Source: Eledone cirrhosa (lineage: Eukaryota). From it: a stretch of 64,000 bases of DNA. The position numbers were made by a program, and so were the translations under genes. The notes below the pieces were generated by a model. The model searched no databases. It worked only from the letters and a program-made list of their open reading frames with translations, and was not told the DNA's origin. The DNA lies in contig OZ024755.1 in the NCBI GenBank assembly GCA_964016885.1, forward strand, positions 24,676,001-24,740,000, given 5' to 3'. Positions 22,436 through 62,820 of this stretch are shown here, piece after piece. Position 1 is the stretch's first letter. The number at the start of each line of letters is the position of its first letter.

Positions 22436-23045
22436 GTCAGGTCACCACTTGGTGCTACTGGTAACATGTATCCCAGTACAACCTGTCTCATGGTCGGGTC
22501 GTTGGCGACTAAACTGGCAACCCCACCAAGGTTTCTTGGTGAGGAGGGTGACTTTGGACATCCTGCAGGACTAAAAACAAAACCTGTCGAAGGGCAAAGG
22601 AGCTCTTAAGAGTCAATGGCCATCCAAAATCACTGGGAGAGATGACCCCTTAGCCTTTGTCAAGGCAGAATTCTAAGAGAAGGAAAACTCTGATATAACA
22701 CCTGCAACCCTGATGGTATCCAATGATGTTGACTTGTTCTTCTTTTTGGTAAATATCATCTTGGTTAAGAGAGTGGGACTGGCTTTGTGCAGTGCCTTTG
22801 CTCACTATAAAAGCTTCACAGCACAGGCATTGCTTTATATCTGGAGATCTCTCTGCACTTATCGTCACATGGTACCATGGGCCCAGCACTATGTGTCAAT
22901 AATTGTCACAAGTGTAGTGTTTGTACCAGAGTTTTCAAGTCGCTGGCTGGACTAAAAAGTCACACTCGTTCAGCGCATCGTTAGGGGTTCTCCTACATGG
23001 ATATAAAGTAGTGGCCGTACTCGAAAACGAGTTGGCAGCCACCAT
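22436..23045 (+). mobile_element. ~610-bp non-autonomous RTE-derived (bipartite 5'+3') element, copy 1
   Basis: 3' part encodes the RTE C-terminal C2H2 motif [25 protein letters not shown]; 5' part resembles an RTE 5'UTR (TAAACTGGCAACCCCACC); (TATG)n tail. Confidence 0.75.
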
Positions 23046-23168
23046 ATGTATGTATGTATATGTATATATATATGTATGTATGTGTGTATGTATATGTATG
23101 TATATATGTATGTATGTATGTATGTATATGTATGTATATGTGTATGTATGTATGTATGTGTATATGTG

Positions 23169-23200
<32 letters not shown>

Positions 23201-23308
23201 TATGTATATGTGTGTGTATGTATGTATGTATATATATGTATATATGTATGTATATATATGTATGTGTGTGTATGTATGTATATGTATATATATATGTATG
23301 TATGTATG

Positions 23309-23339
<31 letters not shown>

Positions 23340-25105
23340 GTATATATGTATATGTGTATGTATGTGTATGTATGTATATATATGTATATGTATGTATGTA
23401 TATATATGTATGTATATGTATGTATGTATATATATGTGTATGTATGTATATGTATATATATATATGTATGTGTGTATATGTATGTGTGTATGTATGTATA
23501 TGTGTATGTATGTATGTATATGTATGTATGTGTATATATATGTATGTATGTATGTGTATATATATGTATGTATGTATGTGTGTATGTATGTATGTATATG
23601 TATATGTATATATGTATGTATGTATGTGTATATGTATGTATGTATGTATGTATATGTATGTATGTATGTATGTATGTATATATATGTATGTATATGTGTA
23701 TGTATATGTATGTGTATGTATATGTATATGTGTATGTATATGTATATATATGTATGTATATATGTATGTATATGTATGTATATATATATGTGTGTGTATG
23801 TATATGTATGTATATGTATATGTATGTGTATGTATGTATGTGTGTGTATATATATGTGTATGTATGTATGTATGTATGTATGTATGTATGTATGTATATA
23901 TGTATGTATGTATGTATGTATATATATGTGTATGTATGTATGTATATGTGTGTGTATGTATGTATGTATGTATATGTGTATGTATGTATATGTATATATG
24001 TGTATATGTATGTATGTATGTATGTGTATATATGTGTATATATGTATGTATGTATGTGTATGTATATGTATATATATGTATGTATGTATGTGTATATGTG
24101 TGTATGTATATGTATGTATGTATATGTATATGTATGTATATATATGTATGTATGTATGTGTATATGTGTGTATATATATGTATGTATGTATGTGTATGTG
24201 TATATATATGTATGTATGTATGTATATGTATGTGTGTATGTATGTATGTATGTATGTATATGTATATGTATATGTATATGTGTATGTATGTATATGTATG
24301 TATATGTGTATATATGTATGTATGTATGTGTGTATATATGTGTATATATGTATGTATGTATGTGTATGTATATATGTGTGTATGTATGTATGTATGTGTA
24401 TGTGTGTATATATGTATGTATGTATGTATATGTATGTATATGTGTATATATGTATGTATGTATGTGTATGTATATATATATATATGTATGTATGTATATG
24501 TATGTATGTGTATGTATATATGTATGTATGTATATGTATATATGTATGTATGTATGTTTGTATGTATATATATGTATGTATGTATGTATATGTGTGTATA
24601 TGTGTATGTATATGTATGTATATGTATATGTATGTATGTATGTATGTATATGTATATATATATATGTATGTATGTATATGTATATATATATATGTATGTA
24701 TGTATGTGTATATATGTGTATGTATGTATGTATATGTATATGTATGTATGTGTGTATGTATGTATATGTATGTATGTATGTATGTATGTGTATATATATA
24801 TATATATGTATATGTATGTGTGTATGTATGTATATGTATATATATATGTATATGTATGTATGTGTGTATGTGTATATATATGTGTATATGTGTGTATGTA
24901 TGTATATGTATGTATATATGTATGTATGTATGTATATGTATATATATATATATGTGTGTGTATGTATGTATATGTATGTATATGTATATGTGTGTGTATG
25001 TATGTATATGTATATGTATGTGTATGTATGTATATGTATATATATGTGTATGTATGTATATGTATGTATATGTGTATGTATGTATATGTATATATATATG
25101 TATTT
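23046..25105. repeat. ~2-kb (TATG)n/(TA)n/(TG)n microsatellite
   Basis: Begins at the element tail. Confidence 0.96.
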
Positions 25106-25107
25106 AT

Positions 25108-25715
25108 GTCAGGTCACCAGTTGGTGCTACTGGTAACATGTATCCCAGTACAACCTGTCTCATGGTCGGGTCGTTGGCGACTAAACTGGCAACCCCACCA
25201 AGGTTTCTTGGTGAGGAGGGTGACTTTGGACATCCTGCAGGACTAAAAACAAAACCTGTCAAAGGGCAAAGGAGCTCTTAAGAGTCAATGGCCATCCAAA
25301 ATCACCGGGAGAGATGACCCCTTAGCCTTTGTCAAGGCAGAATTCTAGGAGAAGGAAAACTCTGATATAACACCTGCAACCCTGATGGTATCCAATGATG
25401 TTGACTTGTTCTTCTTTTTGGTAAATATCATCTTGGTTAAGAGAGTGGGACTGGCTTTGTGCAGTGCCTTTGCTCACTATAAAAGCTTCACGGCACAGGC
25501 ATTGCTTTATATCTGGAGATCTCTCTGCACTTGTCGTCACATGGTACCATGGGCCCAACACTATGTGTCAATAATTGTCACAAGTGTAGTCTTTGTACCA
25601 GAGTTTTCAAGTCGCTGGCTGGACTAAAAAGTCACTCGTTCAGCGCATCAGTAGGGGTTCTCCTACATGGATATAAAGTAGTGGCCGTACTCGAAAACGA
25701 GTTGGCAGCCACCAT
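25108..25715 (+). mobile_element. RTE-derived element, copy 2
   Basis: About a dozen differences from copy 1 by eye. Confidence 0.78.
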
Positions 25716-25756
25716 ATATATGTATATATATATGTATATACATGTATATATATATG

Positions 25757-25841
<85 letters not shown>

Positions 25842-25852
25842 ATATATATATG

Positions 25853-25931
<79 letters not shown>

Positions 25932-25960
25932 GTATATATATATGTATATATATATATATG

Positions 25961-25992
<32 letters not shown>

Positions 25993-26019
25993 TGTATATA
26001 CATGTATATATATATGTAT

Positions 26020-26065
<46 letters not shown>

Positions 26066-26116
26066 TATATATATGTATATACTATATATATGTATATACT
26101 ATATATATGTATATAC

Positions 26117-26148
<32 letters not shown>

Positions 26149-26149
26149 C

Positions 26150-26181
<32 letters not shown>

Positions 26182-26182
26182 C

Positions 26183-26214
<32 letters not shown>

Positions 26215-26273
26215 CTATATATATACATATATATGTATATACTATATATATGTATATACTATATATATGTATA

Positions 26274-26316
<43 letters not shown>

Positions 26317-26691
26317 CTATATATATACATATATATGTATATATATATGTATATACTATATATATATATATGTATATACTATATATATATATGTATATAT
26401 ATATATGTATATACTATATATATATATGTATATATATATGTATATACTATATATATATATGTATATACTATATATATATATGTATATATATATATGTATA
26501 TACTATATATATATATGTATATATATATGTATATACTATATATATGTATATACTATATATATATATGTATATATATATATGTATATACTATATATATATA
26601 TGTATATATATATATGTATATACTATATATATATATGTATATATATATGTATATATATATATGTATATACTATATATATATATGTATATGT

Positions 26692-26739
<48 letters not shown>

Positions 26740-26828
26740 GTGTATATGTATATATATATATATGTATATACTATATATATATATGTATATGTATATATAT
26801 GTATATGTATATATATGTATATGTATAT

Positions 26829-26862
<34 letters not shown>

Positions 26863-26905
26863 ATATGTGTATATGTATATATATATATGTGTATATATAT
26901 ATATA
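25716..26905. repeat. (TA)n microsatellite with a TGTATATAC-interrupted core
   Basis: Directly visible. Confidence 0.95.
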
Positions 26906-26919
26906 TTGTTCTCAAAATA

Positions 26920-30957: not shown

Positions 30958-31194
30958 CTTCAAAATATTAATAAATATAGACATTCATGTGATCAAATAT
31001 ATTTTATTATACATATTTCAGAGGTACTGAGCTATTTCAACAGTACGTCCTCATCAGATAAAATAAGTTGATGCCTGACATACCTTGACTATGTTGATGG
31101 TTATAATTCAGTCATATATATATATATTCAGATCCGCACACTGGCTCATGTACACGCACACACACACACACCAATATACATAGCATACTTCCTG

Positions 31195-35232: not shown

Positions 35233-35929
35233 AAAGTATGTTGTTTAGTGGTAGATAAAAAATATCTAAGTAGCAAGCTTAACAGTTATATGATATTAGT
35301 TCAGTGTCAAAGCTATGAGATATTCTCAGATGTAATTGATAATACTTCCTTCCGTTATGTTTTATACCATTAACGCACAACAAGAATTATCAACAATGAT
35401 ATACCACTGAGGATACAGAAACAAAACACATGGCCATAGTGTAATAAACACGTTTCTGTAGACACATAATCACGGGCACACATATACATATACACATTGT
35501 AATAAACACGTTTCTGTAGTCACATACGGACACACACGTATATATACACCTTGTAATAAATGTGAATGTATATGTATATATATATATATATATACACACG
35601 CTCATACATCTACTCATTAGGGAGTATGTAGTTTTATACTCATATCAAATGTATATTTATGTTTCTATGAATAAAGGTGTGTGTATGTGAGAGTGTGGTG
35701 TGTAGAGTGAGTAAAGGCAAGTGTGTTTAAGGGACAAATAGAAGAGAGGATGAGAGAGAGAGAGAGAGAGATTATATGTATATGTATATATACATATCGC
35801 TAAGCAAATATATACAAATACGAATGTAAATATATACATGCGTATATATATATATATATAACGTATAACTATTTATATATATACCTAGGTACACATGCAT
35901 ATATATATATACCCATATGTGTGTATGTT

Positions 35930-35970
<41 letters not shown>

Positions 35971-36148
35971 TTATATATACATATATATATATATTTATAT
36001 ATACATATATATATATATATATTTATATATACATATATATATTTATATATACATATATATATTTATATATACATATATATATATATTTATATATACATAT
36101 ATGTATATATATATACATATATATATATATTTATATATACATATATGT

Positions 36149-36193
<45 letters not shown>

Positions 36194-36214
36194 AATATAT
36201 ATATATTCGGGTGG

Positions 36215-36391
36215 TCTAGGCACAATGCCAGAAATCACTCAGTGCACTACTGGTACTTTATTTTATCGACCCCGTAAGGATGAGAGGCAAAGTCAACCTC
36301 GCGGGATTTGAACTCAGATCGTAAAGAGACGTAACTATGCTGGAAAGCATGGTGTCTGACCCTCTACCGATACTGCCAATCCACCGACCCA
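36215..36391 (-). mobile_element. SINE family A inside a TA tract
   Basis: Matches the consensus. Confidence 0.88.
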
Positions 36392-42019
<5,628 letters not shown>

Positions 42020-42086
42020 GGACGTAAAATAAAAAATATTTTTTTAAAAAAAATTTAAAAAAAATTTTTTTCTTACTTAAATTTTC

Positions 42087-42166
42087 ACTCCAACTAATTA
42101 GTTTCTGCAATGGATAAAGACAGTACGTAATTCAACTGTCGAGAATTCATTGCGTCATCAGGAAGT
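42087..42166 (-). ncRNA. Type I hammerhead, array copy 1
   Basis: Intact CTGATGA/GAAA/GTT core; two 1-nt deletions in stem II relative to the other copies. Confidence 0.72.
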
Positions 42167-42638
42167 CTATTCTCAGTTAAGTCTCCAGGCAATGCGCGGA
42201 CACTGGCGGCTCATATAAAAATAATAATAATTCGGTAGATCGAACAGCTTGCGAGGACTGAATTCTATGTACCGAAGTTCTCACTGCTTCAAGTCAAATG
42301 GCCGCTTCTAAAGAATCAATCACGTGACACAGAGGCTAGTTAGAAGGAATGGGATGGTAAGATGACTGACGCCTACTAACACCCCAAAAAAATTTTTTTA
42401 GAAGTGGTTTTGACAAGTTTGCTCGACAAATCAGTGATTTGGAGATAAATATAGATAATTTAATATATCAACTAACATAAGCGCACAGATGCACGCCCAT
42501 GCCAGCAAATACACAGGTTATGTCATAGTACCTAGGTGGTTCAATGCAGGAGAATGCAGAACAATAATATAATGGACGTAAAATAAAAATATTTTTTTAA
42601 AAAAAATTTAAAAAAATTTTTTTCTTACTTAAATTTTC

Positions 42639-42720
42639 ACTCCAACTAATTAGTTTCTGCAATGGGATAAAGACAGTTACGTAATTCAACTGTCGAGAAT
42701 TCATTGCGTCATCAGGAAGT
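42639..42720 (-). ncRNA. Type I hammerhead, array copy 2
   Basis: Reverse complement of copy 4. Confidence 0.78.
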
Positions 42721-43193
42721 CTATTCTCAGTTAAGTCTCCAGGCAATGCGCGGACACTGGCGGCTCATATAAAAATAATAATAATTCGGTAGATCGAACA
42801 GCTTGCGAGGACTGAATTCTATGTACCGAAGTTCTCACTGCTTCAAGTCAAATGGCGATTCTAAAGAATCAATCACGTGACACAGAGGCTAGTTAGAAGG
42901 AATGGGATGGTAAGATGACTGACGCCTACTAACACCCCAAAAAAATTTTTTTAGAAGTGGTTTTGACAAGTTTGCTCGACAAATCAGTGATTTGGAGATA
43001 AATATAGATAATTTAATATATCAACTAACATAAGCGCACAGATGCACGCCCATGCCAGCAAATACACAGGTTATGTCATAGTACCTAGGTGGTTCAATGC
43101 AGGAGAATGCAGAACAATAATATAATGGACGTAAAATAAAAAAATATTTTTTAAAAAAAAATTAAAAAAAATTTTTTTCTTACTTAAATTTTC

Positions 43194-43275
43194 ACTCCAA
43201 CTAATTAGTTTCTGCAATGGGATAAAGACAGTTACGTAATTCAACTGTCGAGAATTCATTGCGTCATCAGGAAGT
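43194..43275 (-). ncRNA. Type I hammerhead, array copy 3
   Basis: Reverse complement of copy 4. Confidence 0.78.
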
Positions 43276-43716
43276 CTATTCTCAGTTAAGTCTCCAGGCA
43301 ATGCGCGGACACTGGCGGCTCATATAAAAATAATAATAATTCGGTAGATCGAACAGCTTGCGAGGACTGAATTCTATGTACCGAAGTTCTCACTGCTTCA
43401 AGTCAAATGGCCGATTCTAAAGAATCAATCACGTGACACAGAGGCTAGTTAGAAGGAATGGGATGGTAAGATGACTGACGCCTACTAACACCCCAAAAAA
43501 ATTTTTTTAGAAGTGGTTTGACAAGTTTGCTCGACAAATCAGTGATTTGGAGATAAATATAGATAATTTAATATATCAACTAACATAAGCGCACAGATGC
43601 ACGCCCATGCCAGCAAATACACAGGTTATGTCATAGTACCTAGGTGGTTCAATGCAGGAGAATGCAGAACAATAATATAATGGACGTAAAATAAAAAAAT
43701 ATTTTTTTGAGAATAG

Positions 43717-43798
43717 ACTTCCTGATGACGCAATGAATTCTCGACAGTTGAATTACGTAACTGTCTTTATCCCATTGCAGAAACTAATTAGTTGGAGT
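43717..43798 (+). ncRNA. Type I hammerhead, array copy 4
   Basis: acttc CTGATGA c-gcaatg..gacagtt..aactgtc..cattgc-a GAAA ctaattag TT ggagt: stem I acttc/ggagt, two-helix stem II, palindromic stem III AACTAATTAGTT. Confidence 0.8.
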
Positions 43799-44273
43799 GA
43801 AAATTTAAGTAAGAAAAAAATTTTTTTTTAATTTTTTTTAAAAAAATATTTTTTTATTTTAACGTCCATTATATTATTGTTCTGCATTCTCCTGCATTGA
43901 ACCACCTAGGTACTATGACATAACCTGTGTATTTGCTGGCATGGGCGTGCATCTGTGCGCTTATGTTAGTTGATATATTAAATTATCTATATTTATCTCC
44001 AAATCACTGATTTGTCGAGCAAACTTGTCAAAACCACTTCTAAAAAAATTTTTTTGGGGTGTTAGTAGGCGTCAGTCATCTTACCATCCCATTCCTTCTA
44101 ACTAGCCTCTGTGTCACGTGATTGATTCTTTAGAATCGGCCATTTGACTTGAAGCAGTGAGAACTTCGGTACATAGAATTCAGTCCTCGCAAGCTGTTCG
44201 ATCTACCGAATTATTATTATTTTATATGAGCCGCCAGTGTCCGCGCATTGCCTGGAGACTTAACTGAGAATAG

Positions 44274-44355
44274 ACTTCCTGATGACGCAATGAATTCTCG
44301 ACAGTTGAATTACGTAACTGTCTTTATCCCATTGCAAAAACTAATTAGTTGGAGT
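44274..44355 (+). ncRNA. Hammerhead copy 5 with GAAA changed to AAAA (catalytic G12 lost)
   Basis: cattgca AAAA ctaattag TT ggagt. Confidence 0.65.
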
Positions 44356-44544
44356 GAAAATTTAAGTAAGAAAAAAATTTTTTTTAAATTTTTTTTTAAA
44401 AAAATATTTTTTTATTTTACGTCCATTATATTATTGTTCTGCATTCTCCTGCATTGAACCACCTAGGTACTATGACATAACCTGTGTATTTGCTGGCATG
44501 GGCGTGCATCTGTGCGCTTATGTTAGTTGATATATTAAATTATC

Positions 44545-46131
<1,587 letters not shown>

Positions 46132-46215
46132 ATACACACATATGGGTATATATATATGCATGTGTACCTAGGTATATATATAAATAGTTATACGTTTATA
46201 TATGTGTACACATGC

Positions 46216-46282
<67 letters not shown>

Positions 46283-55877: not shown

Positions 55878-56000
55878 ATCCGCTGATGACGTAATGCAGA
55901 ACTGGCATGTATAGTTGCACGATGATGCCACTGAGATTGGCAAATTGCAAACTGCATTTTTTGGCGCAGTCTGTACTTGCAGAAACCTCGAGTTCCAGGA
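55878..56000 (+). ncRNA. Candidate hammerhead with a ~92-nt stem II
   Basis: CTGATGA c-gtaa-tgcaga ... tctgta-c-ttgc-a GAAA cctcgag TT; stem I weak. Confidence 0.4.
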
Positions 56001-56875: not shown

Positions 56876-57271
56876 CTAGGCTCGCCTGTCGCAGTTTTCA
56901 AATTGTCAAGTTATCTAACGTATGTTATTACTCTAAGGTGGCACAGCCTTATCGAGTGCTTTGGTGCACATTCCTAATTGTATATCGTTAGCTTGGCCAC
57001 AGCCAAAACTTCGATTTTACTAAACTTCCATTTGCATATATATATATATTTCGTTTCTGAATTTGTTTAGCAATATTCTTTATCTGAAATCGTGTGTTGA
57101 AACCGATATTGTTATACTTTGGGAGGGTCATGTTGCCAATAAGAAACACACGCACCAGTTGCTTTCACTTCAATTTATTATATATTTATAAATTTATAAA
57201 TTTACAAATTTACAAACTTATAAATTTCTGGTTGGTTGGTTGGTTCCACAACCAGATAGTTGTTTATATAT

Positions 57272-57316
57272 AGTCATAGTCCTTTCGTCACACACTCTGT
57301 GACCTCTTCAGTGACT
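57272..57316 (-). ncRNA. Minimal type I hammerhead ribozyme
   Basis: agtca CTGAAGA g-gtcaca-gagtg-tgtgac GAAA ggac TA tgact: perfect 5-bp stem I and 6-bp stem II. Confidence 0.75.
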
Positions 57317-61814: not shown

Positions 61815-61870
61815 ACTGCTATATATATTTCGATGATAGCCATTGAATGGCTATGACCTCATCAGGCAGT
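61815..61870 (-). ncRNA. Type I hammerhead ribozyme
   Basis: actgc CTGATGA ggtcatagccat-tca-atggctatcatc GAAA tatata TA gcagt: perfect 5-bp stem I, 11 of 12 positions paired in stem II, (TA)-palindromic stem III. Confidence 0.78.
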
Positions 61871-62619: not shown

Positions 62620-62820
62620 ACCTGTTATTTTTATCTAAAGACATTTTTTTTCTATTCCAACCCACCCGTCCCCTCAATCTATCTTATTTCTCATTCTTTT
62701 TTTCTGATGAAGGACTAGCGTCCGAAACGTTAAGACCCTCTTCCTGCTATATCAAGTGTTAACCTAATATATCCCTCCCATATACTGTACCGATTGTGTT
62801 GTTATTTCTGTTTACCTTTT
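62617..62820 (+). mobile_element. ~200-bp repeat containing a minimal hammerhead (62700-62735)
   Basis: tttt CTGATGA a-ggac-tagc-gtcc GAAA cg TT aaga; antisense copy at 9815-10020. Confidence 0.78.

What the first reader, a model, noticed from the sequence alone, without database searches (positions are those of the whole stretch)
43717..43798. Atypical hammerhead architecture: ~51-nt two-helix stem II closed by a C·A mismatch, GUU site, 12-nt palindromic stem III
Seen: stem II is c-gcaatg/cattgc-a, then a 7x7 internal loop, then gacagtt/aactgtc. The canonical G10.1-C11.1 pair is replaced or displaced by C·A. The same CTGATGAC-G...C-AGAAAC...GTT signature appears in unrelated contexts at 7711 and 55883. 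Inference: a lineage-specific hammerhead subclass that length-restricted motif searches would miss.
Basis: partly seen in the sequence, partly recalled or inferred. Interest (0 to 1): 0.78.

Follow-up and report, generated by a model that had tools for sequence, protein, structure and literature searches.

The report
Long-armed hammerhead in Penelope-type element
A hammerhead self-cutting-RNA motif with an unusually long second arm, missed by the standard RNA-family search, occurs thousands of times in this animal genome inside a non-coding, likely Penelope-type jumping element; it likely cuts as a pair of copies and is likely braced by an extra base-paired contact.

Summary
The structure is real. 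It is a type I hammerhead in a ~557-bp non-coding unit. Five copies form a tandem-plus-inverted insertion in (TA)n, and about 9,000 related motifs match genome-wide against 0 in reversed-pattern controls. Basal stem II shows five independent compensatory changes. (2) GUU and a palindromic stem III are standard for Penelope-like-element (PLE) hammerheads. (3) The C·A/A·A flank is not lineage-specific, because phage contigs carry it too. All 28 of 28 scored inverted insertions have one short and one long fixed end ~119 nt apart, a long form of the PLE 'tail'. The host is best read as a non-autonomous PLE (retrozyme). Cleavage, expression and the autonomous partner are not shown. New variant of a known kind.

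The parts
42018..44544 (.). Whole insertion: tandem plus inverted array of a ~555-557-bp non-coding unit, inside (TA)n
42018..43708 (-). Minus-strand arm: 5′-truncated unit, two full units and a last unit stopping at the 'short' end, 74 nt after the cut site
43708..44544 (+). Plus-strand arm: one full unit and a last unit stopping at the 'long' end, 194 nt after the cut site; inversion junction at 43708
43709..43714 (+). 5′ leader GAGAAU, likely pseudoknot strand pairing with 43737-43742
43717..43721 (+). Stem I, 5′ strand (pairs with 43794-43798; one U·G)
43722..43729 (+). Core CUGAUGA plus the PLE-type extra base (C here; A in one subfamily)
43730..43778 (+). Stem II: basal 6 bp starting with G10.1-C11.1, 7x7 internal loop (43736-42/43766-72), capping hairpin (43743-43765)
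43779..43783 (+). Extra A, then G12-A13-A14-A15.1
43782..43793 (+). 12-nt palindrome: 3-bp stem III as a monomer, 10-12 bp between two copies; predicted cut after 43793 (GUU)
43794..43798 (+). Stem I, 3′ strand
43194..43283 (-). Hammerhead copy 3, intact
42639..42728 (-). Hammerhead copy 2, intact
42087..42174 (-). Hammerhead copy 1, two single-base deletions in stem II
44266..44355 (+). Hammerhead copy 5, G12A at 44337; palindrome and cut strand intact
44426..44544 (+). 119-nt 'tail' between the two fixed ends, holding two hairpins; the one near 44493-44526 covaries across subfamilies
7707..7743 (+). Unrelated short hammerhead with the same C·A flank, 3-bp stem II, GUU and palindrome
55879..55999 (+). 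Decayed copy of an unrelated older family: C·A flank, 92-nt stem II region; most relatives have a GUC site

Best explanation
This is a type I hammerhead motif in each unit of a young, non-coding, tandem-and-inverted repeat element that is likely a non-autonomous Penelope-like element; it likely self-cleaves after GUU as a double hammerhead and is likely stabilised by a pseudoknot between the 5′ leader and the stem II internal loop. Shown: the core, three stems, compensatory changes in stem II, the G-C pair flanked by C/A and A, dispersal in about 9,000 matches, (TA)n targets, and two fixed ends. Inferred: multimeric transcripts fold so that the palindromes of neighbouring units pair. The core of one unit then cuts the site of the other, giving unit-length RNA that may circularise. 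The long stem II is a basal helix carrying a tertiary-contact loop, closed by a freely varying cap hairpin. A PLE reverse transcriptase/GIY-YIG protein acting in trans would cut (TA)n and prime cDNA from both DNA ends at two RNA sites ~119 nt apart. The two cDNAs would meet 5′-to-5′, giving the inverted arrays with one short and one long end. My odds by step: real hammerhead-derived structure under selection 0.95; non-autonomous PLE 0.9; pseudoknot 0.7; measurable self-cleavage 0.7; dimer as main route 0.65.
For: Covariation on 150 distinct copies: basal stem II 96% paired, one pair in all four Watson-Crick forms; slid controls 40-49% paired against 88%. On a tree of 29 units built without the ribozyme, five two-sided changes map to separate branches. 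The extra A is changed in only 36 scattered matches, about the same as a stem III base (41 matches). Pseudoknot: 82% of cells paired, with a G-C to A-U double change and an A-U to G·U change in one subfamily. Unrelated families show other complementary pairs at the same place. The unconstrained MFE of a real two-unit transcript pairs the two palindromes. Ends: 28 of 28 distinct inverted insertions have one short and one long end, matching the PLE tail, inversion and (TA)n descriptions. No coding ORF. Direct fusions of the unit to PLE coding pieces in L104, L121 and L149.
Against: No cleavage or expression data were obtained. The active monomer fold is only 0.4% of the ensemble and lies 2.5 kcal/mol above an alternative that traps the core. 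In Li et al. 2026, 1 of 9 Xenopus retrozyme dimers cleaved in vitro. The anole PLE hammerhead needed protein and was dispensable for insertion in vitro. Within the superfamily the pseudoknot's double change is a single lineage event, one of its six pairs is unpaired in 73 of 150 copies, and leader and loop spacer lengths do not correlate (rho 0.07). Five of nine independent genome families tested had no leader-loop pairing at p<0.05. Stem III is invariant here, so it shows no covariation. The partner autonomous PLE was not found.
Confidence: 0.65

Rival explanations
1. The fold is kept mainly as a binding or folding element for the PLE protein. It cleaves little, or only with protein, and cleavage is not needed for mobility.
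For: The anole PLE hammerhead cleaves only with protein and its mutants still insert. 8 of 9 Xenopus dimers were inactive. PLE minimal hammerheads are slow. The monomer misfolds in silico.
Against: G10.1-C11.1, the extra A and a palindrome base stay constant across subfamilies of 68-98% unit identity while stem II sequence turns over. Core letters were fixed by my search patterns, so their constancy is not independent evidence. A likely tertiary contact is what fast hammerheads use.
Confidence: 0.2
2. The ribozyme works as a monomer: a 3-bp stem III with a 4-nt loop suffices because the pseudoknot stabilises the fold, and the palindrome is incidental.
For: Monomer stem III adds -1.3 kcal/mol, and many insertions hold only one copy per strand.
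Against: Palindromes are kept, with different sequences, in unrelated families. The dimer motif is 6 kcal/mol more stable than two monomers (1.8 kcal/mol in the full transcript).
Confidence: 0.12
3. A satellite amplified locally by unequal crossing-over, with a chance or fossil hammerhead-like motif.
For: Head-to-tail arrays of near-identical units.
Against: Arrays are dispersed over many contigs at 96-100% identity, with fixed ends and variable inversion points, compensatory changes and 0 control matches.
Confidence: 0.03

Closest known systems
Minimal type I hammerheads of Penelope-like elements (Cervera & de la Peña 2014, PMC4209133)
   Same: CUGANGA plus one extra base before G10.1; G10.1-C11.1; palindromic short stem III; GUU common; 4-5-bp stem I; dimer logic; opposite-strand pairs.
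   Different: Extra A before G12 (1 of 56 published rows reads AGAAA; by row order the Cotesia bracovirus element, uncertain because the PDF columns were lost). Stem II region of 51 nt (83-92 nt in other families) instead of a short helix with a small loop. Likely leader pseudoknot, where the paper describes a poorly defined loop 1.
Non-LTR retrozymes / non-autonomous PLE derivatives (Cervera & de la Peña 2020, PMC7229834; Li et al., bioRxiv 10.64898/2026.07.22.740005)
   Same: Non-coding tandem units, each with a type I hammerhead, in thousands of copies; unit length within the reported 51-972 bp.
   Different: Here the arrays are dispersed inverted insertions with PLE-type fixed ends, which points to retrotransposition of multimers and not local expansion. 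No partner pLTR or circular RNA is shown.
PLE insertion anatomy and two-site reverse-transcription start (Craig 2021, PMC8557442; Frangieh 2024, PMC11167929)
   Same: Partial tandems, an inverted 5′-truncated copy, a tail at one end only, and (TA)n or AT-rich targets.
   Different: The tail is ~119 nt, not 30-40. Both ends are followed in the unit by a TATA-like stretch matching the target, whereas the anole element starts at a non-homologous site.
Pseudoknotted hammerheads (Perreault 2011, PMC3088659) and type III hammerheads of toad/termite HDV-like RNAs (PMC7936874)
   Same: A Watson-Crick contact between the stem I and stem II peripheries; a helix-internal loop-cap hairpin design with a 6-bp stem II.
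   Different: Mirror image: here the internal loop and cap are in stem II and the partner is the open 5′ leader of a type I motif. Not tested biochemically.

Membership tests
Hammerhead ribozyme, type I | Core C3-U4-G5-A6-N7-G8-A9 / G12-A13-A14 / A15.1-U16.1, H17 | tested here: met
   Present in copies 1-4; G12A in copy 5
Hammerhead ribozyme, type I | Three helices around the core, supported by covariation | tested here: met
   Stem II has two-sided changes; stem I is 97% paired, mostly one-sided; stem III is invariant in this superfamily and a different palindrome in others
Hammerhead ribozyme, type I | Watson-Crick pair 10.1-11.1 directly next to A9 and G12 | tested here: not met
   One extra base on each side (C or A opposite A); no Watson-Crick subfamily seen in the rows listed. 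Natural mispairs here have precedent (U·U)
Hammerhead ribozyme, type I | Match to an Rfam hammerhead model | tested here: not met
   one search listed 150 of 363 rows, none a hammerhead
Hammerhead ribozyme, type I | Site-specific self-cleavage | not testable with these tools
   Needs in vitro transcription or RNA-end mapping
PLE minimal hammerhead (Cervera 2014) | Extra base between A9 and G10.1; G10.1-C11.1; palindromic 15.2-16.2 and loop 3 | tested here: met
PLE minimal hammerhead (Cervera 2014) | Simple hairpin stem II ending in C directly before GAAA | tested here: not met
   51-nt two-helix stem II and an extra A
Non-autonomous PLE / non-LTR retrozyme | Non-coding tandem units each with a type I hammerhead, dispersed and recent | tested here: met
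Non-autonomous PLE / non-LTR retrozyme | Inverted 5′-truncated copy, tail at one end, (TA)n target | tested here: met
   28 of 28 insertions; tail ~119 nt, longer than described
Non-autonomous PLE / non-LTR retrozyme | Homology to the pLTR of an autonomous PLE | tested here: inconclusive
   Three PLE families examined have other termini; only 150 of 23,002 protein candidates were scored
Non-autonomous PLE / non-LTR retrozyme | Expression as monomeric linear and circular RNA | not testable with these tools

The most novel reading that the evidence does not exclude
A widespread hammerhead subclass, overlooked by standard descriptors: an M·A pair caps stem II, stem II can carry 50-110 nt of structured insert, and an internal loop about 6 bp from the core base-pairs with the 5′ leader. 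This would make these fast, tertiary-stabilised PLE ribozymes and could explain the 'half-core, 35-50 nt apart' motifs and apparent hammerhead losses reported in some PLE clades. In addition, the 28-of-28 long/short end rule would be genomic evidence that each PLE integration primes one DNA end from each of two fixed RNA sites.
Probability: 0.35. Interest if true: 0.72.

Novelty: new variant of a known kind. Interest (0 to 1): 0.55.

Why it matters
Metazoan PLE hammerheads are described as minimal, slow and without clear tertiary contacts, and some PLE clades are said to lack them on the basis of short-spacer descriptors. This genome holds about 9,000 matches of one long-stem-II superfamily plus several unrelated families with the same core flank, which Rfam misses, so surveys are undercounting. 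The natural subfamilies supply ready-made compensatory variants. The window's own copy 4 / copy 5 (G12A) pair gives a direct monomer-versus-dimer test. The invariant one-long-one-short end pattern, with a 119-nt tail that is easy to score, makes the two-start-site model of PLE integration testable on thousands of insertions.

Tried and rejected
Rfam: no hammerhead match on the array, on five phage loci, or in the listed window rows. 'G-C replaced by C·A': rejected. 'C·A specifically required': rejected, since an A·A subfamily exists, as does an unrelated A·A family (536 matches against 3 control). 'Lineage-specific flank': rejected. Leader-distance versus loop-spacer correlation as support for the pseudoknot: none. 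Leader-loop pairing was not significant in L473, L442/L475, L460, family Q, L474 (p 0.11), 2 of 3 copies of the 55883 family, or two phage motifs. Autonomous partner: a PLE family found next to arrays has its own short hammerhead; a second has a different 3′ region; the apparent ORF-to-hammerhead junction in L121 is a one-off chimera, 1 of 30 loci. Pfam gave only a sub-threshold GIY-YIG hit for the PLE pieces, so their clade is read from recalled motifs. Three look-ups in earlier scan findings returned nothing. Lünse 2017, Arkhipova 2017 and Weinberg 2015 are not held and may already describe the M·A flank.

Full report
OBSERVATION. It has a 5-bp stem I, CUGAUGA, a 51-nt stem II region (C, 6-bp helix, 7x7 loop, 7-8-bp hairpin, A), GAAA, a 12-nt palindrome and a GUU site. 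Isolated folding gives both stem II helices and stem I but traps the core against the palindrome (z -2.1). The active monomer fold is 2.5 kcal/mol higher and 0.4% of the ensemble. Rfam found no hammerhead on the array, nor among the 150 of 363 rows listed for the window.

CONTEXT. The motif lies in a ~557-bp unit present five times between (TA)n tracts: three on the minus strand and two on the plus strand, joined 5′-to-5′ at 43708. It has no coding ORF. The genome is 3.0 Gb; the organism was not identified. A DNA search gave 229 matches from 40 of 808 candidates scored, the full-length ones listed at 94-100% identity on many contigs. Pattern counts of the long form were 4,024, 4,622 and 437 with a base other than C after A9, each with 0 for the reversed pattern. 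That is about 9,000 matches, which are not exact copy numbers. Units of 29 subfamily representatives are 508-557 bp and 68-98% identical.

COVARIATION. I aligned 150 of 190 distinct long motifs: at most 26 per subfamily, then 11 rows dropped, mostly junction-derived leaders. Basal stem II is 96% paired, and its second pair occurs as A-U, U-A, C-G and G-C. The whole structure is 88% paired against 40-49% for slid controls. The shuffle control ignores relatedness, and the number of pairs with two-sided change did not exceed it (335 of 500). So I built a tree from the 29 units without leader and ribozyme. Pair 2 changes on both sides three times and pair 5 twice; one lineage has an A·C mismatch at pair 5, and single copies carry decay. 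The cap hairpin varies freely in sequence and length yet covaries (78% paired).

THE 'C·A'. G-C is the first Watson-Crick pair in 147 of 150 rows. The 5′ extra base is C in most subfamilies and A in one true subfamily; T variants are scattered, as CpG decay would give (100 of 437 rows seen). The 3′ extra A differs in 36 scattered matches, comparable to 41 for a palindrome base. Cervera 2014 (main text parts 1-2 of 4 and supplement file 2 parts 1-2 read; file 1 unreadable) defines PLE hammerheads by a base between 9 and 10.1, G10.1-C11.1 and a palindromic stem III, with GUU frequent. One of its 56 rows reads AGAAA. So GUU, the palindrome and the 5′ base are ordinary; the 3′ A is rare but has precedent. 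Whether M·A stacks as pair 10.1-11.1 or bulges is partly a numbering question and is untested. Several have 3 bp + C·A, the length of a canonical 4-bp stem II. The flank is therefore not lineage-specific.

OTHER FAMILIES. Site 7711 belongs to short families (90 matches against 0, many of them partial matches of the long family). Site 55883 is a decayed member of an older family (40 matches, 69-89% identity besides itself) whose aligned relatives mostly have GUC, a longer palindrome and a 10-bp basal stem II. A further search found 536 matches against 3, mostly one family with A·A, an 83-nt branched stem II and GUC.

PSEUDOKNOT (inferred). Leader 43709-43714 is complementary to loop 43737-43742 (-6.8 kcal/mol). 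Across the alignment it is 82% paired. One subfamily changes G-C to A-U and A-U to G·U together; the outermost pair is poorly kept. With fixed windows and shuffles, p<0.05 was reached in 4 of 9 independent genome families: this one, family P, L476, and 1 of 3 copies of the 55883 family. L474 has four G-C pairs at p 0.11; four families and two phage motifs showed none. The windows were chosen from this family, so the test is post hoc. A spacer-length test was negative. Pseudoknots between the stem I and II peripheries are established in hammerheads (Perreault 2011, passages and section 8), and HDV-like type III motifs show the mirror design (passages).

ENDS AND MOBILITY. In every well-sampled subfamily the outward ends fall mostly at two sites, ~50-85 and ~165-210 nt after the cut site, joined to (TA)n. 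One search scored loci whose two outward arms both ended in a dinucleotide run within the fetched DNA. It gave 34 rows, of which 6 repeat an insertion, and 28 of 28 distinct insertions had one short and one long end. Craig 2021 (passages) describes partial tandems, an inverted 5′-truncated copy, a 30-40-bp tail at one end and (TA)n targets. Frangieh 2024 (parts 1-2 of 4) maps the tail to two reverse-transcription start sites. Here the tail is ~119 nt and holds a covarying hairpin. The unit is directly fused to PLE coding pieces in three loci, best read as template switches; for L121 the junction is 1 of 30 loci. The partner PLE was not found. Li 2026 (parts 1-3 of 5) argues that animal retrozymes are non-autonomous PLEs and found 1 of 9 dimers active.

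MECHANISM. The unconstrained MFE of the real copy 3 + copy 2 transcript pairs the two palindromes and forms the upstream unit's core around the downstream unit's site; the dimer motif is -39.4 against -33.2 kcal/mol for two monomers. I therefore favour double-hammerhead cleavage. In a copy 4 + 5 transcript, G12A should then block cutting at copy 4's site and not at copy 5's own. Cleavage and expression are not shown.

NOVELTY. Nine library searches turned up no description of an M·A-flanked, internal-loop stem II type I hammerhead with a leader pseudoknot. I saw only listings for most hits and passages of PMC7229834, PMC6765202, PMC10085705, PMC11300833, PMC1636495, PMC13282606 and PMC13725137. 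Three key papers were not held, and Craig's supplement on 'half-core' motifs was not read; these may hold precedent. Verdict: new variant of a known kind, interest 0.55.

Noticed in passing
window 62700-62740 (+), 31010-31065 (-), 61820-61870 (-), 57270-57316 (-): Further short hammerhead-like motifs of other families, without the extra A; the window holds several PLE-type remnants.
   Followed up: partly
L437-L481 (e.g. L445:1476-1616): Family P: about 500 matches of an A·A-flanked hammerhead with an 83-nt branched stem II, GUC site and palindrome, usually ending ~150 nt later in (TA)n; leader GGC pairs with loop GCC.
   Followed up: partly
L443, L449, L460, L473-L476, L442: At least five more unrelated families with M·A and stem II inserts of roughly 60-110 nt, seen as one or two copies each.
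   Followed up: partly
L258, L314, L393, L397, L398, L401, L406; L255; L228; L286: Phage-contig type I hammerhead candidates with C·A or A·A at the base of stem II; one lies next to a tRNA-like stretch. The five loci tested had no Rfam hammerhead match.
   Followed up: partly
L331-L360 (e.g. L353): An abundant ~2.6-kb (TA)n-targeting PLE family with RT and GIY-YIG, carrying its own short hammerhead with a GUU site and palindrome.
   Followed up: partly
L104:796-1296, L121:110-1450, L149:881-1150: Direct fusions between the non-coding unit and coding pieces of different PLE families, one at a 12-nt microhomology; likely template switches.
   Followed up: yes
window 44113-44122 and the ~60 nt upstream of each leader: A CACGTG box and a GC-rich stretch are conserved across subfamilies upstream of the ribozyme, possibly an internal promoter; the motif reading is recalled.
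   Followed up: no
window 42018 and 44544: Both fixed ends are followed inside the unit by a TATA-like 4-5-mer matching the (TA)n target, suggesting priming by microhomology.
   Followed up: partly
window 35843-42017, 44545-46279, 441-2620, 23045-26906: Very long, imperfect (TA)n and related microsatellite tracts of 1.7-6 kb; they cause the spurious miRNA hits in Rfam.
   Followed up: no
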